This document shows positions 2,072 to 8,367 of a stretch of DNA of 64,000 nt, in pieces. Made by a program: the position numbers and the translations under genes. The stretch lies in assembly GCA_902594855.1 (NCBI GenBank), contig CACJNS010000001.1, positions 561,335-625,334 of the forward strand, written 5' to 3'. How positions within the stretch are numbered: the first letter of the stretch is position 1; each line of letters starts with the position of its first letter. The notes beneath the pieces are model-generated. The model was given only the letters and a program-made list of their open reading frames with translations. It was not told the DNA's origin and did not search any database. This stretch comes from an uncultured SAR86 cluster bacterium (GTDB lineage Bacteria > Pseudomonadota > Gammaproteobacteria > Magnimaribacterales > AG-339-G14).

Positions 2072-2290
2072 ATGGAAGGATATGACTTGCTAATGATATT
2101 TTGGTCAGGTTTCTTAATCTTTGGATTATTTATGGCCTTCCAAGATTATCGGAAGTGGATTACTTCAAATGAAGCCAATAGGAGCTTGTCTCTTAGAGAA
2201 ATATTTTCAATCTTTGGTCAAGGAATTGTCTTCGTAATAATTGCGTTAGCAGGGATTATTTTTTTTACCTTAAATCAACATTTAATTTAG
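2072..2290 (+). CDS. Small two-helix membrane protein, unknown function
   Basis: 72-aa ORF with two clear hydrophobic helices, tightly packed between neighbours. I recognise no family. Confidence 0.4.
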   Translation: MEGYDLLMIFWSGFLIFGLFMAFQDYRKWITSNEANRSLSLREIFSIFGQGIVFVIIALAGIIFFTLNQHLI

Positions 2291-2293
2291 CAG

Positions 2294-2638
2294 GTGAAAT
2301 ACCTAATTTTCATTCTTGCTTTGTTAGCCGTCTGCTGCAGTGATAACTTTAGAGAACTGAATTGTGAATCTTCTTCAGATGGAAGTAGAAGTTATATTTT
2401 TAATAAACAAAGGGTTCAAGTAATAACATCAGAAGATGAAGGCAGTTGGAGTTGCGATTATTTTCGACAGACTCAAGATTTCTTAAGATGTAGGGTCTAC
2501 TCAGCAGACAATAGTAGTATGGATATTGTTTATTCTGATTACGAGGAATCAATAAACGATACTAGAGTTTATTTTGGGGCAAATAACCCGAGCTATTCAA
2601 AAACATATACTTGGAAAGGCTATTGCGGAAAATCCTAA
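2294..2638 (+). CDS. Putative lipoprotein, unknown function
   Basis: GTG start and a signal peptide ending in the lipobox-like LLAVC|C. The mature part is Cys-containing and hydrophilic. Confidence 0.45.
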   Translation: MKYLIFILALLAVCCSDNFRELNCESSSDGSRSYIFNKQRVQVITSEDEGSWSCDYFRQTQDFLRCRVYSADNSSMDIVYSDYEESINDTRVYFGANNPSYSKTYTWKGYCGKS

Positions 2639-2658
2639 CCCTAAAATCCTTTTTAAAA

Positions 2659-2704
2659 TGGTGCCCAGAGGTGGAATCGAACCACCGACACAAGGATTTT
2701 CAGT
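2659..2704 (-). repeat. Island-distal att repeat: displaced 3' 46 nt of tRNA-Phe
   Basis: tggtgcccagaggtGgaatcgaacCaccgacacaaggattttcagt matches 6858-6903 at 44/46 positions. It lacks the tRNA 5' half, so it is a fragment and not a gene. Confidence 0.9.
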
Positions 2705-2754
2705 TCTTTACAAGTAGTCGTAAACACTTATTACTACAATGTTTTTAATAATAG

Positions 2755-2827
2755 TGTGTTAAAAAATGTGTTAAATGACTAACTTTAGTGTGTTAGTCGA
2801 TGCCTTCTAAAGTGCTGAATTAACACA
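2755..2827. repeat. Left-end array of TGTGTTA(A/G) motifs (candidate arm-type/iteron sites)
   Basis: tgtgttaa at 2755 and 2767, tgtgttag at 2789, inverted ttaacaca at 2820, and a degenerate agtgttaa at 2931. The same motifs recur at 6740-6811. Confidence 0.6.
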
Positions 2828-2964
2828 TTATTCTTGTCTCTCTAGACATTTTTATCATATCAAAAAAATATGTGTTTTTTTTAAAAAAGTCCCTTACCAA
2901 AATTGAACTTCCATGAGATTATGAATGTGTAGTGTTAAAAACTACTTTTTTATAAATATAGTTA

Positions 2965-3465
2965 ATGAAAATGAAAAATGAATATCAAAAGTTCTTTAGT
3001 GCTGATTGCTTTACGCATCATATAACTTTATCTCCTTCACATCTAAACGAATATTCAATATTGCCTCTAATACGAAAAATAGAATTTAAATTAAATAAGA
3101 TTTTTCTAAATTCTAATTTTCCAAAATATGTGACTACAGATAAATTTAAATTTTTTATTTTTCCTGAAGACTCTGATAGACATTTACAACATTTTCATAT
3201 GCTTCTCTATTCTCCCTCAAAGAAAGAACGAGAAAGTAAAAGTAAAGATTATTGCATTGCATGTAAATTCATAGAAAAACCATTTTTTGAAACCTGTGAT
3301 TTTTGCACAGCAAGAGTTTTAAATGATTTGTTTGCTGAAGAAATTCCGAATGTAGATGTTCAAGTCAATATTACATCTGACTTTGACCATTACGATAATT
3401 TTTACGCAACAAAGAAACAAAGATTTGAATTAGATTATAAAGATAGTTATCTAGTGTGTTCATAA
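2965..3465 (+). CDS. Putative miniature HUH rolling-circle Rep-like protein (Rep_1/pC194-pUB110-like motif order) with CxxC...CxxC insert
   Basis: Ordered motifs: I FTHHITLS, II HLQHFHMLLY (HUH + hydrophobics), III NFYATKK (YxxK). The spacings of ~57 and ~70 aa are similar to pUB110 Rep, and PNVDVQVNI resembles its PNVKVQMI segment. CIAC-x13-CDFC lies between motifs II and III. Confidence 0.45.
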   Translation: MKMKNEYQKFFSADCFTHHITLSPSHLNEYSILPLIRKIEFKLNKIFLNSNFPKYVTTDKFKFFIFPEDSDRHLQHFHMLLYSPSKKERESKSKDYCIACKFIEKPFFETCDFCTARVLNDLFAEEIPNVDVQVNITSDFDHYDNFYATKKQRFELDYKDSYLVCS

Positions 3466-3467
3466 TT

Positions 3468-3523
3468 GCTGCTCTATCTTGAGAGTAATTTAACTATCTG
3501 TTCATGCAGTTCTACTTCTGCAT
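3468..3523 (+). other. Candidate double-strand origin: nick-site-like TATCTTGAGAGTAAT plus small hairpin
   Basis: CTTGA at 3478-3482, 13 nt after the Rep-like stop, resembles the CTTG/ATA nick core of the pC194 family and phiX174. ATGCAG-N8-CTGCAT hairpin at 3504-3523. Confidence 0.3.
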
Positions 3524-3607
3524 TGTGATTTCTATTATCTGAAAAAACATAAATAGTAATATGAAGACATCATCAAAAATAAAACAATTACAAAGAAGAT
3601 TACAAAC

Positions 3608-3811
3608 ATGAAAAGAAAAAATTACTCATCAAATCCTCTGCAAGTTCGATTGCATACAATTACAGAAGAATCTCTGAATAATTTAATTCAAGATAATGAA
3701 TATTGTCAGAAGAAGAATATTATTTCTAAATCTGATGCTGTTCGTTCTGCATTATTTAATTTCTGCAAAGACTACGAGTCTTATAAATTTAATAAATTAA
3801 ATTCACTTTAA
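3608..3811 (+). CDS. Putative ribbon-helix-helix (CopG/Arc-like) DNA-binding protein
   Basis: The LQVRLHTITEESLNNLIQ...SKSDAVRSALFNF pattern fits beta-strand/helix/helix of RHH regulators. 67 aa. Confidence 0.4.
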   Translation: MKRKNYSSNPLQVRLHTITEESLNNLIQDNEYCQKKNIISKSDAVRSALFNFCKDYESYKFNKLNSL

Positions 3812-4015
3812 ACACTACATGAAAACACTAATAAAAGAGTGTATGTGCTTGGGGAGAAATCAGTTCTAGTCGACTAATATATCGGGAAATTTTTAAGAAA
3901 AAATATGAAATCTCAACCTTTGAAAAAACACATTAATGATTTAAAGAAACAATTAAATCAAATCAAGAAAGATATAACTGCACTCGAAAAACTTTTTGTA
4001 AATTTAGAGAAAGAT

Positions 4016-4768
4016 CTATAAATCAATATAGGCATCAAACATTTCTTTAAAGTCAGATGATTTGACTAATCTTATGCCTCCACCATGATTATGTTTTTTA
4101 CCAATATTTGTGCCTGAACGATATACACCCAGTCTGTTATCGTATCTTGCTTTACCTTCTTTGATTAACTTAATGCATTTTTCGAAATTAAATCCCATAA
4201 ATGCTTTGCCTTCTATGTATTTAAAATGTGTTCTACCATCAATTTTTTCTTCTTCTGCTTTCACAACAAATGTATTTTTAAGTTTTGAACTTGCAGTTCT
4301 TAATGAGTCAAAAGTCCAATAAACACTTGAATCTATTGGTTTTTCATTAAGGTCACAAAGTAATATTTTTAATTTATGTTCAGCATCATCAATCTGTATT
4401 TTCATTTTGTATTTGCCATATACTACTGACCATCTATGTGCATAAATTGATGTTCTGAAAACTTTGATATGAGGATACTCTTCATCACTTATGCCCCAGT
4501 TTTCCCTCATATATTCATCACCTTTTTCAGGAAAATCAGGTTTACAGGTGAAAAGACTTGCTGCAGATTTTGTATGTTGTCTTTGACTCTTACATTCCCA
4601 ACCTTCAAAGTCAGCATCTTTTAGATTATTTTCCTGAACACCTAGAATTGTTTCAAAAGTATTTCCAATTGCTCCATCGTTTTTTTCTGCAAATGGTTTG
4701 TCACTTTCAATGAAACCAAGATTTTTGATTCGTTGGAATTCTGATTTAACTCTATTTACATCTACCAC
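4016..4768 (-). CDS. Type II restriction endonuclease, MvaI/BcnI family
   Basis: Matches my recollection of R.MvaI: GAIGNTFETILG, catalytic DADFEGWECKS (D...ExK), SSVYWTFDSL and RLGVYRSGTNIGKKHNHGGGIRL. GTG start, directly downstream of the methyltransferase. Confidence 0.75.
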   Translation of the reverse strand: MVDVNRVKSEFQRIKNLGFIESDKPFAEKNDGAIGNTFETILGVQENNLKDADFEGWECKSQRQHTKSAASLFTCKPDFPEKGDEYMRENWGISDEEYPHIKVFRTSIYAHRWSVVYGKYKMKIQIDDAEHKLKILLCDLNEKPIDSSVYWTFDSLRTASSKLKNTFVVKAEEEKIDGRTHFKYIEGKAFMGFNFEKCIKLIKEGKARYDNRLGVYRSGTNIGKKHNHGGGIRLVKSSDFKEMFDAYIDL

Positions 4769-4802
4769 AAATAAAGCATGCCATATGCTTTATTATTTGT
4801 GG
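4765..4802 (-). promoter_or_regulatory. M-R intergenic hairpin that base-pairs the GTG start of the endonuclease gene
   Basis: The mRNA-sense sequence CCACAAAUAAUAAAGCAUAUGGCAUGCUUUAUUUGUGG folds into 15 bp with a 3-nt bulge and a 5-nt loop. The GUG at 4768-4766 lies in the basal stem, and no Shine-Dalgarno sequence precedes it. Confidence 0.55.
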
Positions 4803-4807
4803 AGTCA

Positions 4808-5557
4808 TTATTCAGTAAAAAGGTCTTCTGATTTCTTTAGTCTATCTTCTGAAATATCAATATATTTCTTACTTATCTCACTTCCTAGATATTTTCTCTT
4901 TAGTCTTTTTGCAACAACTGCTGTCGTTCCAGTTCCCATAAATGGGTCATAGACAACATCACCTTCTTCAGAGAAATTCTCTAAAATTTTTGCAACTAAT
5001 TCTTTTGGGAAAACTGCTCCATGATTTTCTCCCCCACGACTTCTTTCTCTTTTAATTTCCCATATATCATCAAGAGTTCCTCTTTCAAAACTTCCTCTTT
5101 TTCTATATTGCCTACTAATCGGATAATCTTTATCAAAAACAAGAATTAGTTCTGTTCTTCTATTAAGAACTTGTTTTTGTATAGAGGGTTGAGCATTTCC
5201 TTTATCCCATACAATAATATCTTTAAGATATTCAGAAAATTCACCTATCATCTTAAAAATTGACCTCTTGCTGCCTGTGACGATTTGAATGTTATAGAAA
5301 ATTAATTCACTTACTCTAATCAATTCCCTTAAGATCTCTGTATGAAGTTTGTTGTATTCATCAATCGGAAGATTATCATCAAACTCTGTGTATTTTGTGC
5401 TAATTTCTTTAACAATTTGTCGTGAACAATACTCTCCATTTCTTATTCTTAAATTCATATTGTAAGGTGGAGAAGTGATGACTAAATCAACAGAGTCATC
5501 TTTCATCTTCTTTAAAGTTGAAAGACAATCTTCATGATAAATTTTATTTAGTTTCAT
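4808..5557 (-). CDS. Beta-class N4-cytosine (or N6-adenine) DNA methyltransferase
   Basis: Motif IV DLVITSPPYNM lies N-terminal to motif I VVYDPFMGTGTTAVVA (beta permutation). SPPY rather than DPPY favours m4C, matching MvaI/BcnI-type systems. Confidence 0.85.
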   Translation of the reverse strand: MKLNKIYHEDCLSTLKKMKDDSVDLVITSPPYNMNLRIRNGEYCSRQIVKEISTKYTEFDDNLPIDEYNKLHTEILRELIRVSELIFYNIQIVTGSKRSIFKMIGEFSEYLKDIIVWDKGNAQPSIQKQVLNRRTELILVFDKDYPISRQYRKRGSFERGTLDDIWEIKRERSRGGENHGAVFPKELVAKILENFSEEGDVVYDPFMGTGTTAVVAKRLKRKYLGSEISKKYIDISEDRLKKSEDLFTE

Positions 5558-5582
5558 ATTTAAATTATATCCTCTTAATCAT

Positions 5583-6731
5583 TTATATAACTCGCAAGAA
5601 CTCTTTTAAATCAGTATTTAACTGACTTTTCGGAAAATAGAAGTCATCAATCATTTTCAGTGATGTGTCTGCTCTTCTTGCAATTTGAATATGACTAATT
5701 TTTGTATTCATAAGATTCATGATTATTGATGTATGTCTTAAAGAATATGCAGTGCAATTATTGCCATCATCATCTGTTCTCAAATCACATCTCTCAAGTA
5801 AAGTTCTAAATTGTGCAGTCATTACACGCATTGCATGTCTTCTGTTTTGATGCTCATTTAAAAATAAGAAATCAGATTTTTTCCAACCTTTATTTCTTTT
5901 CTTCATATCTCTAAAAATATAACTTCCAGTAGATAGAGTCTGAACAGACATCTGTTGATTTTTTCTATTAACTTTAAATTGTAGATATTCTGCTTTTGTA
6001 TCTTTTTCTTTTTTCTCTTCAATATCACCATAACGAAGAGAGTAAACTTCAGAGATAGTAGGTCTTAACATACTAGACATCATGAACACTATAAAATCAT
6101 GTAAATCATATGTAATCGTATATCTAGTGCCATTGTGCATCACGACACTTTCTCCAATGAGTTCTAACGACTTCTTTTGTAGTTTCTTATACGAATCTCT
6201 AGTAAAGAATCCTCTGCGTTCAGATTTGACTCCTCGAATTTTAGAAAATTTCACATAATTTTCTGCCATATCTAAAATTTGTCGAAGTAAAGAACGATGT
6301 TTATTGATTGTTGATTTTGCAAGTTGTCTTTCTTTGTGCAAGTTAGTGAAAAAATCTTCTGTATCTTCTCTAGTAATTGATTGAACTTCACGATTTTTGA
6401 AAAACTCTAAAATTCCATTTTTACGATTGAGTAGAGAAGTGACTTCTTTTTCTGCACTGATGCCACTTGCTGTAATTTTGCCTTTTGTTCTTTCTATGAT
6501 TTTGTTTGCAAAATGCTCGATTGTCTTATCTTTATCAAATATGAGTTTTTTGCTACCAGTCATCAAATCTTGCTGATATTCAAATGCTTTCTTTCTTGCT
6601 TCAGTTTGTGATGTTGTTTTTAGTGATTTGCGATGCTGTTTTCCATCTACATTGATACATACATACCAATTTTGACTGCGATTACGAGTGTAGATACTCA
6701 TGTAATCAAATAATTTAATTGTCTTGCTCAT
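5583..6731 (-). CDS. int: Tyrosine recombinase / phage-type integrase
   Basis: C-terminal catalytic signatures MLRPTISEVYSLRYGDI (box I Arg), AYSLRHTSI (HxxR) and MIDDFYF (Tyr). Adjacent to the tRNA-Phe attachment site. Confidence 0.9.
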   Translation of the reverse strand: MSKTIKLFDYMSIYTRNRSQNWYVCINVDGKQHRKSLKTTSQTEARKKAFEYQQDLMTGSKKLIFDKDKTIEHFANKIIERTKGKITASGISAEKEVTSLLNRKNGILEFFKNREVQSITREDTEDFFTNLHKERQLAKSTINKHRSLLRQILDMAENYVKFSKIRGVKSERRGFFTRDSYKKLQKKSLELIGESVVMHNGTRYTITYDLHDFIVFMMSSMLRPTISEVYSLRYGDIEEKKEKDTKAEYLQFKVNRKNQQMSVQTLSTGSYIFRDMKKRNKGWKKSDFLFLNEHQNRRHAMRVMTAQFRTLLERCDLRTDDDGNNCTAYSLRHTSIIMNLMNTKISHIQIARRADTSLKMIDDFYFPKSQLNTDLKEFLRVI

Positions 6732-6739
6732 TCAAACCC

Positions 6740-6811
6740 TTAACACACTTGAGATACAAGAATTAACACACAAATAATGTGTTAAAGTGTGTTAGTAGTT
6801 ATCATAACACA
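6740..6811. repeat. Right-end array of TGTGTTA(A/G)/TTAACACA motifs
   Basis: ttaacaca at 6740 and 6763, tgtgttaa at 6778, tgtgttag at 6788, ataacaca at 6804. The pair aatgtgttaaa + agtgtgttagt occurs at both island ends with different spacing. Confidence 0.6.
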
Positions 6812-6857
6812 TAAAATGATTAAAAATGTCTGAAAGTGTTGATTTTACTGCATTTGA

Positions 6858-6933
6858 TGGTGCCCAGAGGTAGAATCGAACTACCGACACAAGGATTTTC
6901 AGTCCTTTGCTCTACCAACTGAGCTATCTGGGC
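6858..6933 (-). tRNA. tRNA-Phe (anticodon GAA)
   Basis: The reverse complement reads GCCCAGATAGCTCAGTTGGTAGAGCAAAGGACTGAAAATCCTTGTGTCGGTAGTTCGATTCTACCTCTGGGCACCA. It forms a 7-bp acceptor stem, has a CTGAAAA anticodon loop and a TTCGATT T-loop, and encodes CCA. It is close to E. coli tRNA-Phe. Confidence 0.95.
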
Positions 6934-6974
6934 AATCGAGCGCACAATATTAGAAGAATCGTAAGTTAAGCGCA

Positions 6975-6988
6975 ATCGATTAATCGAT
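6975..6988. promoter_or_regulatory. Perfect 14-bp palindrome ATCGATTAATCGAT in the tRNA-Phe/transporter divergent region
   Basis: Self-complementary by inspection. It lies 36-49 bp upstream of the GPH transporter start. Candidate operator; function unknown. Confidence 0.25.
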
Positions 6989-7023
6989 AGAAATTAGAAT
7001 ATTTAAAGTATTATGAACAGGGG

Positions 7024-8367
7024 ATGAATTCAGAAACTTTAACAAACCGAGTAAGGGCAGGGTACGGTATTGGTGACTACGCCATTTGCCTTTACTGGAG
7101 CGGTATCGGTCTTTATCTTTTATATTTCTATACCGACGTGGTTGGCATTTCTCCAATTTTAGCTGGTTGGATTTATGCTCTGGGAATTGGTTGGGATGCG
7201 ATCACCGACCCGTTCATGGGGTATTTAGCCGAAAGGACCAAAACAAAAATGGGCAGCTATCGTCCCTTTATTTATTATGGATCGATACCATTAGCCTTAT
7301 CATTTGTTCTGCTCTTTTGGGTGCCTCCTTTTGAAGGTACTGTTTTGTTTTTATTCTTGATTCTAGTTAATTTAATTCACAGAAGTTGTTTCACCATTGT
7401 TAGTGTTCCTTACTCATCATTGACAGCCAGAATTACCAACGACAGCAATGAGCGCACAAAATTAACGACCGCAAGAATGATAAGTGCTTCATTTGGAACA
7501 CTTTCAATGTCTGCTTTAGCGTTTCCGTTGATAGCATATTTTGGCGGAGCCGATGAGGCTTATGGTTTTCTTTGGCTCGCAACAATCTCTGGTTTGATTG
7601 CTATTGCTCTATTATCTGTAACGGTTTATTCAGTTCGCGAGAAGGTCGATGAAATAGTTACCTCAAATCTTCCCAACTTTGTATCAATTACCAAAACCGT
7701 GGCAACCAATTATCCTTTTTGGATAGTTTTCGGCTGCATTCTCATCTTAGGTTCAACCGGAGTCATGTTTAACAAAAATTTAATTTATTTTGTTAAGTAC
7801 GGACTAGAACTGCATGAATATCAGGGATTAATCTTAGGGGTAAGTTCTGGCGCCTCGTTTTTATCTTTACCTTTTTGGGCGTATTTGGCATTAAAAATTG
7901 GAAAAAGGGAGACCTGGTTAATTTCAATGACAATCGCTTTCATAGGTCTTTTATTATTTTTCTATTATCCAATTGCTTCTTTAAATGAGCTATTGATCCT
8001 TTTAGCACTAATCGGAGTTGGAAACGGTGCTGGAGGGGTTCTCTTTTGGTCAATGTTGCCTGATACAGTTGAATACGGCGAGTGGAAAAGCGGCGTTAGA
8101 ACCGAATCATCTCTTTATGGTTTTATGACATTTGCACAGAAATCATCGATAGCTGTGGCGGCTTTAATCTTAGGATTTTTATTATCGGGCATAGGGTTTG
8201 AACCCAACCAAATTCAATCAGGAGAAACCATATCTGGAATGAAGTTTATGATGAGTTGGATACCTATCTGTGGAATTATAATTAGTCTAGTATTGATGTA
8301 CTTTTATCCAATAAGCACAAAGTTTCATGGCGAGCTTTTACAGAGAATAAAAGAGAGGAACGCATAA
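7024..8367 (+). CDS. Glycoside-pentoside-hexuronide (GPH/MelB-like) cation symporter
   Basis: 12-TM protein with the GPH signature region GWDAITDPFMGYLAERT. 447 aa. Confidence 0.75.
   Translation: MNSETLTNRVRAGYGIGDYAICLYWSGIGLYLLYFYTDVVGISPILAGWIYALGIGWDAITDPFMGYLAERTKTKMGSYRPFIYYGSIPLALSFVLLFWVPPFEGTVLFLFLILVNLIHRSCFTIVSVPYSSLTARITNDSNERTKLTTARMISASFGTLSMSALAFPLIAYFGGADEAYGFLWLATISGLIAIALLSVTVYSVREKVDEIVTSNLPNFVSITKTVATNYPFWIVFGCILILGSTGVMFNKNLIYFVKYGLELHEYQGLILGVSSGASFLSLPFWAYLALKIGKRETWLISMTIAFIGLLLFFYYPIASLNELLILLALIGVGNGAGGVLFWSMLPDTVEYGEWKSGVRTESSLYGFMTFAQKSSIAVAALILGFLLSGIGFEPNQIQSGETISGMKFMMSWIPICGIIISLVLMYFYPISTKFHGELLQRIKERNA

What the first reader, a model, noticed from the sequence alone, without database searches (positions are those of the whole stretch)
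2659..6933. Compact tRNA-Phe island combining integrase, R-M cargo and a rolling-circle-type module
An intact tRNA-Phe(GAA) lies at 6858-6933 on the minus strand. Its 3' 46 nt recur as a direct repeat at 2659-2704 (44/46 identical). The ~4.15 kb between the repeats holds a tyrosine integrase next to the tRNA, an SPPY methyltransferase and an MvaI/BcnI-like endonuclease. It also holds a 166-aa protein with ordered HUH Rep motifs, an RHH protein, and ~260 bp and ~125 bp non-coding ends packed with one shared octamer motif. Both att copies, the integrase and the end motifs are all present, so the element looks complete and possibly still mobile. I cannot name a described element class that combines an integrase, an RCR-type Rep and a self-contained R-M in about 4 kb.
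Basis: partly seen in the sequence, partly recalled or inferred. Interest (0 to 1): 0.8.

Follow-up and report, generated by a model that had tools for sequence, protein, structure and literature searches.

The report
Mini integrative island with HUH-like replicator
A 4.2-kb mobile island sits in the tRNA-Phe gene of a marine SAR86 bacterium, carrying its own integrase, a restriction-modification system and a tiny, previously unannotated HUH-type nuclease that probably copies the excised circle; it belongs to a widespread but undescribed branch of the small integrative elements known from ocean bacteria.

Summary
tRNA-Phe(GAA) lies at 6858-6933(-). Its 3' 46 nt recur once, at 2659-2704 (44/46). 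The two differences are compensatory in the T-stem.

The 4,153 bp between the copies hold:
- a divergent tyrosine integrase;
- an MvaI/BcnI-family endonuclease with an SPPY methyltransferase;
- a 166-aa protein with invariant HxH and YxxK motifs;
- 67-aa and 38-aa ORFs.

The host is SAR86. Related genomes have unoccupied tRNA-Phe sites or different islands at the same site. Copies of this element at 98-99% identity sit at tRNA-Phe in other chromosomal contexts.

The 166-aa gene, with its 122-aa and 67-aa neighbours, is the constant core of a marine family. That family swaps recombinases (two tyrosine types, one serine type), targets (tRNA-Phe, tRNA-Ile, guaA) and cargo. One sister element assembles as a 5,962-bp circle with a single attP.

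The end motif RTGTGTTAR tracks the integrase type, not the Rep, so I read it as integrase arm sites. A hairpin with compensatory changes, followed by an invariant 20-nt block after the Rep gene, is the candidate nick site.

The window copy has lost the 122-aa gene. The RHH call is unconfirmed.

The architecture matches tycheposon, PICMI and VEIME-type elements, so this is a new variant of a known kind.

The parts
2659..2704 (-). Distal att copy. This is the displaced, host-derived 3' 46 nt of tRNA-Phe (G..C T-stem variant). Similarity extends to 2655-2709.
   Evidence: It matches the tRNA of unoccupied-site genomes at 98%.
2705..2878 (.). Left arm, specific to Int382-type elements. It holds four RTGTGTTAR copies (2754-2762, 2766-2774, 2788-2796, 2820-2828), read as integrase arm-type sites (inferred).
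   Evidence: Similarity to the guaA-type elements starts only at 2879.
2879..2964 (+). Leader of the 166-aa gene, shared by elements with different integrases. It contains a small hairpin, GTAGT-N7-ACTAC, at 2929-2945 (GTAGTC/GACTAC in L104).
2965..3465 (+). 166-aa HUH/Y1-like nuclease, the putative replication initiator. It has invariant H76, H78 and Y147-x-x-K150, plus a subfamily-specific CxxC...CxxC zinc ribbon.
3464..3490 (+). Hairpin A, overlapping the stop codon. Other clades have a different sequence that forms a hairpin at the same place.
3504..3543 (+). Hairpin B (3504-3523, ATGCAG/CTGCAT) followed directly by the invariant block TGTGATWWCTATYRTCTGAA (3524-3543). Candidate nick site or origin; alternatively a terminator or operator.
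3561..3611 (+). 16-codon in-frame remnant (MKTSSKIKQLQRRLQT) of the family's 122-aa gene. A 318-bp deletion occurred between 10-bp microhomologies.
3608..3811 (+). 67-aa conserved small protein. Its pattern is RHH-like (PLQVRLH ... SKSDAVRSAL), but no profile search confirms this. Possible regulator or excision cofactor.
3905..4021 (+). 38-aa conserved small ORF, predicted helical, function unknown.
4016..4768 (-). Type II restriction endonuclease of the MvaI/BcnI family (cargo).
4808..5557 (-). Beta-class N4/N6 DNA methyltransferase with an SPPY motif (cargo). It is the partner of the endonuclease.
5583..6731 (-). Divergent tyrosine integrase (382 aa), facing inward next to the tRNA. Family invariants are R222, K256, Y328-x-x-R331 and Y364.
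6732..6857 (.). Right arm with four RTGTGTTAR copies (6740-6748, 6763-6771, 6777-6785, 6787-6795).
6858..6933 (-). Intact tRNA-Phe(GAA). Its 3' 46 nt (6858-6903) are the element-derived att copy (A..T T-stem variant).

Best explanation
This is a 4.15-kb site-specific integrative element of a SAR86 bacterium.

Integration (shown by comparison). Its tyrosine integrase recombined an attP that carried a copy of the tRNA-Phe 3' end with the chromosomal tRNA gene. The tRNA was rebuilt with element-derived sequence, and the native 3' end was pushed 4.2 kb away.

Arm sites (inferred). The RTGTGTTAR clusters at both ends are most likely arm-type binding sites for this integrase.

Cargo (family assignment shown, activity inferred). 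The cargo is a type II restriction-modification pair of the MvaI/BcnI type. It would give phage defence and also make the island addictive to its host.

Replication module (inferred). The opposite end carries the family's constant module. It encodes a 166-aa HUH/Y1-type nuclease and small partner proteins. After excision as a circle, the nuclease would nick one strand at the conserved hairpin-plus-20-nt site just downstream of its own gene. A host helicase and polymerase would then carry out rolling-circle copying. That would keep the excised form alive and produce multimers or single strands for transfer in vesicles or phage capsids.

State of this copy. It has lost the 122-aa module gene, so its replication step may be impaired or may depend on a complete relative.
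For: Boundaries and site.
- Similarity to related SAR86 genomes breaks exactly at the two core copies.
- L011 and L013 have a single core and no island.
- L008 has the same left flank and the same displaced core, but a different, integrase-less R-M island.
- The distal copy carries the native T-stem variant and the live tRNA carries the element variant.

Mobility.
- Contigs encoding an identical integrase carry this element at 98-99% nucleotide identity at tRNA-Phe, with other flanking genes (L111, L112, L117-L119).
- Modular variants exist: with the 122-aa gene (L111), without R-M (L113), and without the Rep module (L112).

Circular form.
- L100 carries a 98%-identical 166-aa protein (P0001).
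- It has a 77-bp exact terminal overlap, giving a 5,962-bp circle in which integrase, a single att core and the 166-aa gene are contiguous.
- L094 and L095 are the integrated form, with 19-20-bp direct repeats at the guaA 3' end.

Arm sites.
- All 8 RTGTGTTAR matches in the window are in the two ends, against 1.4 expected.
- The motif is present in Int382/Int381 elements, including L112, which lacks the Rep.
- It is absent from Int407 elements that have a 98%-identical Rep. Those have TTGTCAAA clusters around attP instead.

HUH nuclease.
- H76 is invariant, and H78 and Y147 are nearly invariant, across 45 sequences down to about 20% identity.
- 24 of 45 members give weak hits to PF23343 REP_ORF2-G2P. 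Further members hit Gemini_AL1, Phage_GPA and Rep_1.
- The AF2 model has pLDDT 82 and pTM 0.80, with a beta-alpha-beta-beta-alpha-beta core.
- Foldseek against BFVD gives 7 hits at E<=1e-3. All 7 named proteins in the top 50 are replication or nonstructural proteins of parvoviruses, CRESS-DNA viruses and Microviridae, which are HUH-initiator families.

Cis site.
- A hairpin sits at a fixed position, with compensatory stem changes between clades (ATGCAG/CTGCAT versus ATGTCA/TGACAT).
- It is followed by a block with 15 invariant positions.

Synteny.
- The order rep, 122-aa gene, 67-aa gene is constant across three recombinase types.
- Members at 24-28% identity again sit with integrases and R-M cargo.
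Against: - No HUH family reaches its curated threshold.
- Foldseek against the PDB gives nothing better than E=0.07, and the list mixes HUH folds with generic ferredoxin-like folds.
- hhalign against phiX174 gpA aligns the HUH strand in register, but with 1% probability.
- No relative was found in 72,556 plasmids, 50,697 phage records or IMG/VR.
- No circle junction was seen for the Int382 lineage itself.
- Hairpin B with its T-rich tail also passes a simple terminator scan, and the fold energy of the region is unremarkable (z = -1.5).
- The window copy lacks the 122-aa gene.
- At 166 aa with no helicase domain, the protein is smaller than the rolling-circle plasmid initiators I am aware of (my knowledge).
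- No excisionase was identified.
Confidence: 0.55

Rival explanations
1. It is a helper-dependent phage satellite of the VEIME or PICMI type. On phage infection it excises, rolls out concatemers and is packaged by headful into a helper phage's capsids. The R-M cargo protects the host from other phages.
For: - Size, integrase, small replication module and defence cargo match the published descriptions. PICMI115 is 6.1 kb with six genes, replicates by rolling circle and is packaged as a concatemer (PMC10803314).
- VEIME monomers range from under 5 kb to 16.8 kb, and some carry R-M or Abi genes (PMC9618062).
- A circular sister element exists.
- Sister elements carry AIPR, SinI and BstXI R-M cargo.
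Against: - No terS, pac or cos site, capsid, AlpA or primase gene was found.
- No relative of the 166-aa protein was found in IMG/VR viral contigs.
- SAR86 is not mentioned in the main text of the VEIME paper.
- Nothing here links the element to any phage.
Confidence: 0.2
2. It is an integrative mobilizable element. The 166-aa HUH protein is a minimal relaxase, and hairpin B plus the invariant block is its oriT. The 67-aa protein would be a relaxosome accessory factor. Transfer would rely on a conjugative system supplied in trans.
For: - A hairpin followed 3' by a conserved single-stranded stretch is the layout of relaxase nic sites (PMC4814116 abstract, and my knowledge of TrwC and TraI).
- Small DNA-binding partners usually accompany relaxases (my knowledge).
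- Integrase plus a Rep-like relaxase is the definition of many IMEs (my knowledge).
Against: - No MOB or relaxase family hit at any threshold. The weak hits and the fold matches go to replication initiators, not relaxases.
- No coupling protein or type IV secretion gene lies in any of the related loci examined.
- Streamlined SAR86 genomes are not known to carry conjugative systems (my knowledge).
Confidence: 0.1
3. It is an integrase-driven island only, with no self-replication. The 166-aa protein and its partners do something else, such as regulation, immunity to related elements or defence. Hairpin B would simply be a transcription terminator or operator.
For: - All HUH evidence is sub-threshold or structural at modest scores.
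- Hairpin B fits a terminator pattern.
- L112 persists without the module, and the window copy persists without the 122-aa gene.
Against: - HxH and Tyr are conserved down to about 20% identity.
- The module stays constant while integrases, targets and cargo are exchanged.
- The block after the hairpin is invariant where the flanking sequence and the stem itself change. A terminator tail would not need that.
Confidence: 0.13
4. The repeat is a dispersed or chance repeat, and the gene cluster is ordinary chromosomal DNA.
For: None found.
Against: - The repeat has exactly two copies, against 0 expected.
- Similarity to relatives breaks at the copies.
- The island GC is 29.8% against 34.4% for the window.
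- The same element sits at the same tRNA in other contexts.
Confidence: 0.01

Closest known systems
Tycheposons (Hackl et al., bioRxiv 10.1101/2020.12.28.424599; integrative elements of Prochlorococcus and other marine bacteria)
   Same: - An inward-facing site-specific tyrosine integrase lies next to an intact tRNA, with a partial tRNA copy at the far end.
- A small replication module lies at the opposite end, with cargo in between.
- Small serine recombinases occur as accessory hallmark genes.
- Tandem accretion at the tRNA builds variable islands.
- Related elements are reported in Gammaproteobacteria.
   Different: - Tycheposon replication modules are 2-4 kb and encode primases, helicases or polymerases. 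Here the module is about 1 kb and encodes an HUH-like nuclease.
- The elements described there are mostly about 10-20 kb.
- I could not test whether Int382 falls in the tycheposon integrase lineage or whether any tycheposon hallmark profile matches these proteins.
PICMI, phage-inducible chromosomal minimalist islands of Vibrionaceae (PMC10803314)
   Same: - Very small (6.1 kb, six genes).
- Has an integrase, a replication gene, unknown small ORFs and anti-phage cargo.
- Has a circular form.
- Rolling-circle-like amplification and concatemers were shown experimentally.
   Different: - PICMI is defined by int, alpA and a primase (DUF3987 or DUF5906), and integrates next to fis.
- Here there is no AlpA and no primase, the target is tRNA-Phe, and the putative initiator is of the HUH type.
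- No helper phage is known.
VEIMEs, virion-encapsidated integrative mobile elements of marine bacterioplankton (PMC9618062)
   Same: - Marine host and a small monomer size (under 5 kb to 16.8 kb).
- Tyrosine or serine recombinases.
- R-M and Abi cargo.
- The authors propose plasmid-like rolling-circle replication.
   Different: VEIMEs are defined operationally by recovery as concatemers from virus particles. That cannot be tested here. SAR86 is not mentioned in the main text.
HUH replication initiators of ssDNA phages, viruses and rolling-circle plasmids (phiX174 gpA and Microviridae Rep, filamentous-phage gII/PF23343, CRESS-DNA Rep, pC194-type Rep_1)
   Same: - The three motifs occur in the usual order: a beta-strand motif, HUH, and Y-x-x-K.
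- The predicted core is beta-alpha-beta-beta-alpha-beta.
- The best fold matches and the weak profile hits go to these families.
   Different: - No family threshold is reached.
- The protein is only 166 aa, with no helicase or oligomerisation domain.
- It has an inserted CxxC...CxxC zinc ribbon.
- It has one catalytic Tyr, unlike the Y-x-x-x-Y of gpA-type proteins (my knowledge).
- It is encoded on an integrase-bearing chromosomal element.
Integrative elements that replicate by rolling circle: AICEs such as pSAM2 (Int + Xis + RepSA), IMEs with Rep-like relaxases, ICEBs1 (my knowledge). Also integrative filamentous phages and their satellites (RS1, TLC, phiRSM with a small serine recombinase) (my knowledge).
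   Same: They combine a site-specific recombinase acting at a tRNA or other conserved site with an HUH or Rep-type nicking protein that acts on the excised circle.
   Different: - Those elements are larger, carry transfer or virion genes, or use host XerCD.
- No transfer, coat or morphogenesis gene is present here.
- No sequence similarity was detected.

Membership tests
tRNA-targeting integrase island (tyrosine-recombinase genomic island) | An integrase gene lies next to an intact tRNA, and a direct repeat of the tRNA 3' end marks the far boundary. | tested here: met
tRNA-targeting integrase island (tyrosine-recombinase genomic island) | Unoccupied sites exist in relatives, and similarity breaks at the repeat edges. 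| tested here: met
   - L011 and L013 have a single core.
- L008 has the same left flank and core with a different island.
- An exact 'lipo114-tRNA' empty allele was not found.
Tyrosine recombinase (Phage_integrase, PF00589) | Catalytic residues R, K, H-x-x-R, H/W and Y. | tested here: inconclusive
   - R222, K256, R331 and Y364 are invariant in 23 homologues.
- The first His is Tyr328.
- The H/W position is unclear.
Tyrosine recombinase (Phage_integrase, PF00589) | The catalytic-domain profile is hit above threshold. | tested here: not met
   - The window protein hits only the SAM-like N-terminal domain in Pfam.
- It does hit PHROG_1 'integrase' at E=2e-22 over residues 10-353.
- Some homologues at 41-43% identity carry PF00589.
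HUH endonuclease superfamily | An HUH (His-hydrophobic-His) metal-binding motif on a beta-strand. | tested here: met
   H76-F-H78-MLL lies in predicted strand 76-82. H76 is invariant and H78 is at least 90% conserved in 45 sequences.
HUH endonuclease superfamily | A catalytic Tyr motif C-terminal to the HUH motif. | tested here: met
   Y147-A-T-K150. Y147 is at least 90% conserved across the family, and the motif reads Y-x-[ST]-K in most members.
HUH endonuclease superfamily | HUH fold shown by structure comparison. | tested here: inconclusive
   - BFVD: 7 hits at E<=1e-3, with TM 0.37-0.56. All named hits are HUH initiators.
- PDB Foldseek: best E=0.07, with HUH folds mixed among generic ferredoxin-like folds.
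HUH endonuclease superfamily | Site-specific single-strand nicking with a covalent 5'-phosphotyrosine link. | not testable with these tools
   This needs biochemistry. The candidate site is 3504-3543.
Rolling-circle plasmid Rep families (Rep_1 PF01446, Rep_2, REP_ORF2-G2P PF23343) | A profile match above the curated threshold. | tested here: not met
   - PF23343 scores 17.1 bits against a cut-off of 27.8.
- The best E among 45 members is 4e-4.
- Rep_1 is hit by one member at E=0.1.
Type II restriction-modification system, MvaI/BcnI type | An MvaI_BcnI endonuclease lies next to a DNA methyltransferase. | tested here: met
   - PF15515 at E=3e-47 and PF01555 at E=4e-40.
- PADLOC REase_II at 6e-29 and MTase_II at 4e-46.
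- The genes are 39 bp apart on the same strand.
Ribbon-helix-helix proteins (67-aa ORF) | A profile or structure match to an RHH family. | tested here: not met
   No RHH family was found for any of 14 homologues in Pfam, and the PDB profile search found nothing significant. Only the sequence pattern resembles RHH.
Tycheposon | An inward-facing integrase at the tRNA end, a small replication module at the integrase or opposite end, and cargo between them. | tested here: met
   The gene order in the window matches the definition quoted.
Tycheposon | The tycheposon-specific integrase lineage and the shared hallmark gene profiles (primase, helicase and others). | not tested
No primase or helicase domain is present.
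PICMI | int + alpA + primase (DUF3987 or DUF5906), integrated next to fis. | tested here: not met
   No AlpA or primase hit. The target is tRNA-Phe.
VEIME | Recovered as concatemeric repeats from virus particles. | not testable with these tools
   Only an indirect negative: no relatives in IMG/VR.
Integrative mobilizable element (IME) | A relaxase of a MOB family with a cognate oriT. | tested here: not met
   No relaxase family hit was found for any island protein.

The most novel reading that the evidence does not exclude
The 166-aa protein may found a new, minimal clade of HUH/Y1 initiators. It has no Pfam family, and only 56 clusters at 50% identity were found among 1.84 billion representative proteins. 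On this reading it is the hallmark of a widespread class of 4-6-kb integrating and circularising elements in streamlined marine bacteria. The elements keep the module (rep, 122-aa gene, 67-aa gene, and the hairpin/nick site) constant. They exchange integrases (two tyrosine types and a large serine recombinase), chromosomal targets (tRNA-Phe, tRNA-Ile, guaA) and defence cargo. They would amplify by rolling circle into multimers that travel in vesicles or in borrowed phage capsids. That would make them the smallest self-replicating integrative elements or satellites described.
Probability: 0.35. Interest if true: 0.72.

Novelty: new variant of a known kind. Interest (0 to 1): 0.58.

Why it matters
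SAR86 is one of the most abundant uncultured bacterial groups in the surface ocean, and how its streamlined genomes exchange genes is poorly known.

This locus gives a concrete and very small vehicle for that exchange, made of an integrase, a roughly 1-kb putative replication module and a defence cassette. The same tRNA-Phe site holds different defence islands in different cells.

The constant module travels with three unrelated recombinases. This offers a clean natural experiment on how integration and replication functions are recombined.

If the 166-aa protein is an active HUH nuclease, it would also be among the smallest known. That makes it of interest for covalent protein-DNA tagging tools, since HUH tags use exactly this chemistry.

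Tried and rejected
Searches that found nothing.
- A profile of the 166-aa family against PDB sequences gave nothing meaningful.
- tblastn of the 166-aa protein against PLSDB plasmids and INPHARED phages gave no match at E<=1.
- The IMG/VR scan with the family alignment gave 206 pattern matches, none confirmed.
- A profile search with the wide alignment against 5.8 billion proteins found only unannotated relatives with no Pfam domain.
- Rfam at a permissive E-value on 2400-7200 found only the tRNA.
- PADLOC shows no defence-family hit for the 166-, 67- or 122-aa proteins, or for the cargo proteins of sister elements.

Fold comparisons.
- Foldseek of the first AF2 model (pLDDT 67) and the second (pLDDT 82) against the PDB gave no hit better than E=0.015 and 0.07.
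- hhalign of the family against phiX174 gpA aligned the HUH strand in register, but at 1% probability.

Tests that failed or were uninformative.
- RHH test of the 67-aa protein: no support.
- The exact-protein look-up of the flanking 114-aa lipoprotein was not on record.
- Counts of CCWGG and CCSGG: 0 in the island, but only about 1-2 are expected (my estimate). There is no depletion in the window. This says nothing about specificity.
- The DNA fold energy of 3460-3548 is not unusual (z = -1.5).

Readings rejected.
- The end motif as Rep iterons, because it follows the integrase type and not the Rep.
- An inovirus prophage, because there is no coat, Zot/pI or other morphogenesis gene and no hydrophobic small ORF.
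- An IS200/IS605-type transposon, because the protein always travels with a site-specific recombinase and att repeats.

pMV158 (NC_010096) was not in the plasmid collection. I did not pursue the pC194 Rep.

Full report
**1. The observation**

ARAGORN finds a single tRNA in the window, tRNA-Phe(GAA) at 6858-6933 on the minus strand. Rfam confirms it. Its 3' 46 nt occur exactly twice in the 64 kb, at 6858-6903 and 2659-2704, with none expected by chance.

The two copies differ at two positions, G..C in the distal copy and A..T in the live tRNA. These positions pair with each other in the T-stem, so the tRNA stays intact. Weaker similarity runs on to 2709.

The 4,153 bp between the copies have 29.8% G+C, against 34.4% for the window.
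- a 166-aa ORF at 2965-3465(+);
- a 67-aa ORF at 3608-3811(+);
- an MvaI_BcnI endonuclease at 4016-4768(-), Pfam E=3e-47;
- an N6_N4 methyltransferase with DLVITSPPY at 4808-5557(-), E=4e-40;
- a 382-aa integrase at 5583-6731(-).

PADLOC calls the nuclease and methylase a type II R-M pair.

The integrase is divergent. Pfam sees only the SAM-like N-terminal domain, while PHROG_1 'integrase' matches residues 10-353 at E=2e-22. In an alignment of 23 homologues, R222, K256, R331 and Y364 are invariant.

One is a conserved 38-aa ORF at 3905-4021(+). The other is a remnant of a deleted gene, described in section 3.

**2. Host and integration site**

The MFS transporter gene next to the tRNA identifies the host as the marine SAR86 cluster. 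Seven single-cell or metagenome-assembled genomes share 98-99% identical transporters.

At their tRNA-Phe:
- L011 and L013 have one core copy and no island.
- L008 has the window's left flank, including the 72- and 114-aa genes and the displaced core, at 95% identity. A 5.1-kb island with a helicase-type restriction enzyme and a methylase-specificity fusion, and no integrase, fills the gap.
- L040 (3.9 kb; HNH, HIT and EEP nucleases), L010 (8.5 kb) and L012 (about 1 kb) hold yet other contents.

Similarity to the window stops exactly at 2704 and resumes at or close to 6857. It resumes at 6857 in L009, L010, L011 and L040, and 8-25 nt inside the island end in L013 and L008.

The tRNA in all these genomes has the G..C T-stem of the window's distal copy. 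So the distal copy is the native 3' end, and the live tRNA's 3' end came in with the element. This is the classical outcome of integrase-mediated insertion into a tRNA 3' end.

An exact empty allele with the 114-aa gene abutting the tRNA was not found. It is inferred from L008.

**3. The same element elsewhere, and its variants**

The integrase protein is found, with identical sequence, on 23 metagenome contigs. Aligned to the window:
- L111 carries the whole element at 98.6% (right part) and 96.5% (left part) nucleotide identity, with both arms and both cores. It has different flanking genes, and another island lies in tandem.
- L112 has the integrase, methylase and endonuclease only. The Rep module is deleted (window 4010 is joined to 2776).
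- L113 has the integrase plus the module but no R-M. It is followed by a core and an 83%-identical right arm, which indicates a tandem element.
- L117-L119 have the element at tRNA-Phe with another upstream gene.

So this element has recently entered several SAR86 backgrounds, always at tRNA-Phe, and the R-M pair is a detachable cassette.

L111 also shows that the window copy has a deletion. A 318-bp in-frame deletion between 10-bp microhomologies removed a 122-aa gene and left a 16-codon remnant, MKTSSKIKQLQRRLQT, at 3561-3611. The same deletion is seen in L003, L004, L005 and L006, which come from four samples.

**4. A family with a constant module**

The 166-aa protein has 24 full-length close relatives at 47-98% identity, all from marine metagenomes and none annotated. 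Across about 70 loci, the order 166-aa gene, 122-131-aa gene, 67-aa gene, then often a 38-44-aa gene, is constant.

What varies is the recombinase, its target and the cargo:
- (i) Int382-like tyrosine integrases at tRNA-Phe (window, L104, L111). A 51%-identical relative sits at tRNA-Ile(GAT) with an 83%-identical methylase, a 73%-identical MvaI/BcnI enzyme and a 59%-identical Rep (L105-L107).
- (ii) An unrelated 407-aa integrase (PF00589) with a small resolvase.
- (iii) A 567-aa large serine recombinase with a resolvase (L088-L093).

Other cargo includes unknown membrane proteins (L100) and an acetyltransferase (L094). L109, an Int386 element at tRNA-Phe that keeps only the 67-aa gene of the module and has no Rep homologue, carries AIPR plus Dcm/SinI.

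Members only 24-28% identical to the window protein again lie beside a 428-aa integrase and an N6_N4 methylase/BstXI pair.

**5. Circular form**

L100 encodes a 98%-identical 166-aa protein (P0001). It is a SPAdes contig of 6,039 bp with an exact 77-bp terminal overlap, which gives a 5,962-bp circle. The circle runs 166-aa gene, 122-aa gene, 67-aa gene, cargo, resolvase, Int407, and back to the 166-aa gene.

Its Int407-to-Rep spacer contains one copy of CTATTCCCACTCAATAGTTGC. In L094 and L095 the same element type is linear in a chromosome. There it is bounded by 19-20-bp direct repeats of that sequence, and the copy next to the integrase completes an ORF ending ...KPPATIEWE*. I recognise this as the C-terminus of GMP synthase, guaA (my knowledge).

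So attP, attL and attR are all observed for the sister lineage. L101 and the scaffold L001 show the same integrase-to-Rep junction. L001 runs round the circle twice, once with the MvaI/methylase cassette and once with the resolvase.

No circle junction was seen for the Int382 lineage itself.

**6. The end motif**

All 8 matches to RTGTGTTAR in the window lie in the two ends, 4 in each. Across loci the motif follows the integrase:
- It is present at both ends of the Int382 and Int381 elements examined, including L112, which has no Rep.
- It is absent from Int407 elements whose Rep is 98% identical. Those have TTGTCAAA clusters on both sides of attP instead.

Similarity between the two lineages starts only at window 2879. 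I therefore read the motif as integrase arm-type sites, not as Rep iterons. This is an inference.

**7. Is the 166-aa protein an HUH nuclease?**

An exhaustive profile search of 1.84 billion representative proteins finds only 56 clusters, all short proteins of 46-231 aa.

For:
- In a 45-sequence alignment reaching about 20% identity, H76 is invariant, and H78, Y147, N44, K45 and F61 are at least 90% conserved. The tyrosine sits in Y-x-[ST]-K.
- The CxxC...CxxC pairs are confined to the close subfamily and a few others.
- 24 of 45 members weakly hit PF23343 (REP_ORF2-G2P, best E=4e-4). Others hit Gemini_AL1, Phage_GPA and Rep_1. All of these are HUH initiator families, but none is above threshold.
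- AlphaFold2 with the wide alignment gives pLDDT 82 and pTM 0.80. The model has a beta-alpha-beta-beta-alpha-beta core, with motif 1 and the HUH motif on strands.
- Against BFVD there are 7 hits at E<=1e-3. All 7 named proteins in the top 50 are parvovirus NS, CRESS-DNA Rep or Microviridae Rep proteins.

Against, or neutral:
- Foldseek against the PDB finds nothing better than E=0.07, although RAYT, parvovirus NS1, AAV Rep, IS200 transposase and Helitron appear in the list.
- hhalign places FIFPED...HFHMLL on phiX174 gpA's CVPEYG...LHFHAVHF, but without significance.

I conclude that HUH/Y1 chemistry is likely, at about 0.7. Membership of any named Rep family is not shown.

**8. Candidate cis site**

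Immediately after the Rep stop codon, every family member has two hairpins.

The first differs in sequence between clades but forms at the same place (window 3464-3490).

The second (window 3504-3523) is ATGCAG/CTGCAT in the window clade. In others it is ATGTCA/TGACAT, TGTCAT/ATGACA or ATGTCATC/GATGACAT. Three stem positions therefore change on both sides with pairing kept.

It is followed at once by TGTGATWWCTATYRTCTGAA, which has 15 invariant positions across clades whose Rep proteins are about 57-62% identical to the window's. A hairpin followed by a conserved single-stranded stretch is what HUH enzymes recognise (my knowledge).

The same feature also passes a crude terminator scan, and its folding energy is ordinary. 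The assignment is therefore a hypothesis.

**9. The 67-aa protein**

It is conserved (12 invariant residues in 14 sequences) and its pattern looks RHH-like. No RHH family or solved structure matches it. Its role as regulator, excision cofactor or nuclease accessory is open.

**10. Comparison with known elements**

The architecture fits the published definition of tycheposons: an inward-facing integrase at the tRNA, a small replication module at the other end, cargo in between, small serine recombinases as accessory genes, and tandem accretion. Those modules, however, encode primases and helicases.

PICMIs are experimentally shown 6-kb satellites with int, alpA and a primase that amplify by rolling circle. 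VEIMEs are marine integrative elements from under 5 kb to 16.8 kb, found as concatemers in virions, and some carry R-M or Abi genes.

IMEs, AICEs such as pSAM2, and integrative filamentous phages also pair a recombinase with a nicking initiator (my knowledge).

Four things are new here:
- the initiator family, which is unannotated and absent from sequenced plasmids and phages;
- the very small size;
- the documented exchange of three recombinase types around one module;
- the SAR86 host.

**11. Verdict**

This is a real and recently mobile integrative element with R-M cargo (confidence about 0.95). It most likely replicates after excision through an HUH-type nick at the conserved site (about 0.55).

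The rival readings are a helper-phage satellite life style, a relaxase role, and a non-replicative island. Each is stated in the report with the test that would refute it.

It is a new variant of a known kind, of moderate to good interest.

Noticed in passing
window 3561-3611 (compare L111 7661-8029): The window copy carries a 318-bp in-frame deletion of the family's 122-aa gene, between 10-bp microhomologies. It leaves a 16-codon ORF that overlaps the 67-aa start (ATGA). The same deletion occurs in contigs from four samples (L003, L004, L005, L006).
   Followed up: yes
L008 4688-9809; L040 5932-9834; L010 1356-9834; L012 8689-9718: In closely related SAR86 genomes the same tRNA-Phe site, with a displaced core copy, holds quite different islands with no homologue of the window's integrase. 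L008 has a helicase-type restriction enzyme plus a methylase-specificity fusion, and L040 has HNH, HIT and EEP nucleases. L012 keeps only a 90%-identical copy of the Int382-type right arm. The site is a defence-island hot spot.
   Followed up: partly
L094 1145-1163 and 5558-5576; L100 4952-4971: The sister lineage with the 407-aa integrase targets the last codons of a gene ending ...KPPATIEWE*. I take this to be guaA. It duplicates 19-20 bp, and repeated TTGTCAAA(C)TT motifs lie on both sides of attP.
   Followed up: partly
L001 (scaffold, N-gap at 2990-2999): This 5.4-kb scaffold runs round the circular element twice. It carries the MvaI/methylase cassette on one pass and the small resolvase on the other. 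This suggests co-existing cargo variants in one sample, or a tandem pair.
   Followed up: partly
L002 1-320: This contig has the window-type integrase and R-M on one side, but the guaA-type left arm and core next to the 166-aa gene. It is a recombinant between the two integrase lineages, or part of a tandem array.
   Followed up: no
L104 9825-19503 (GCA_028336305.1): A 9.6-kb tRNA-Phe island has a 41%-identical integrase. Its Rep module is in the opposite orientation relative to the integrase and lies next to a small resolvase/invertase. L123, L127 and L139 also have the integrase and Rep co-directional.
   Followed up: no
L155, L156 and a 5,266-bp contig without DNA: Distant Rep-like members (46% G+C, another host) lie on contigs of about 5.2 kb. 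The gene order is circularly permuted between samples, which hints at another small circular element. No terminal overlap was found.
   Followed up: partly
window 2072-2638 versus L011 9194-9831 and L013 8666-9832: The genes between the conserved alpha/beta-hydrolase gene and the tRNA differ between genomes. The window and L008 have 72- and 114-aa ORFs, while L013 has a 175-aa and an 88-aa ORF. The chromosomal side of the att site is therefore itself variable, perhaps from older integration remnants.
   Followed up: no
L149 599-2463: One distant Rep-like member (54% G+C) lies directly upstream of a Mutator-type transposase gene (PF00872) rather than an integrase.
   Followed up: no
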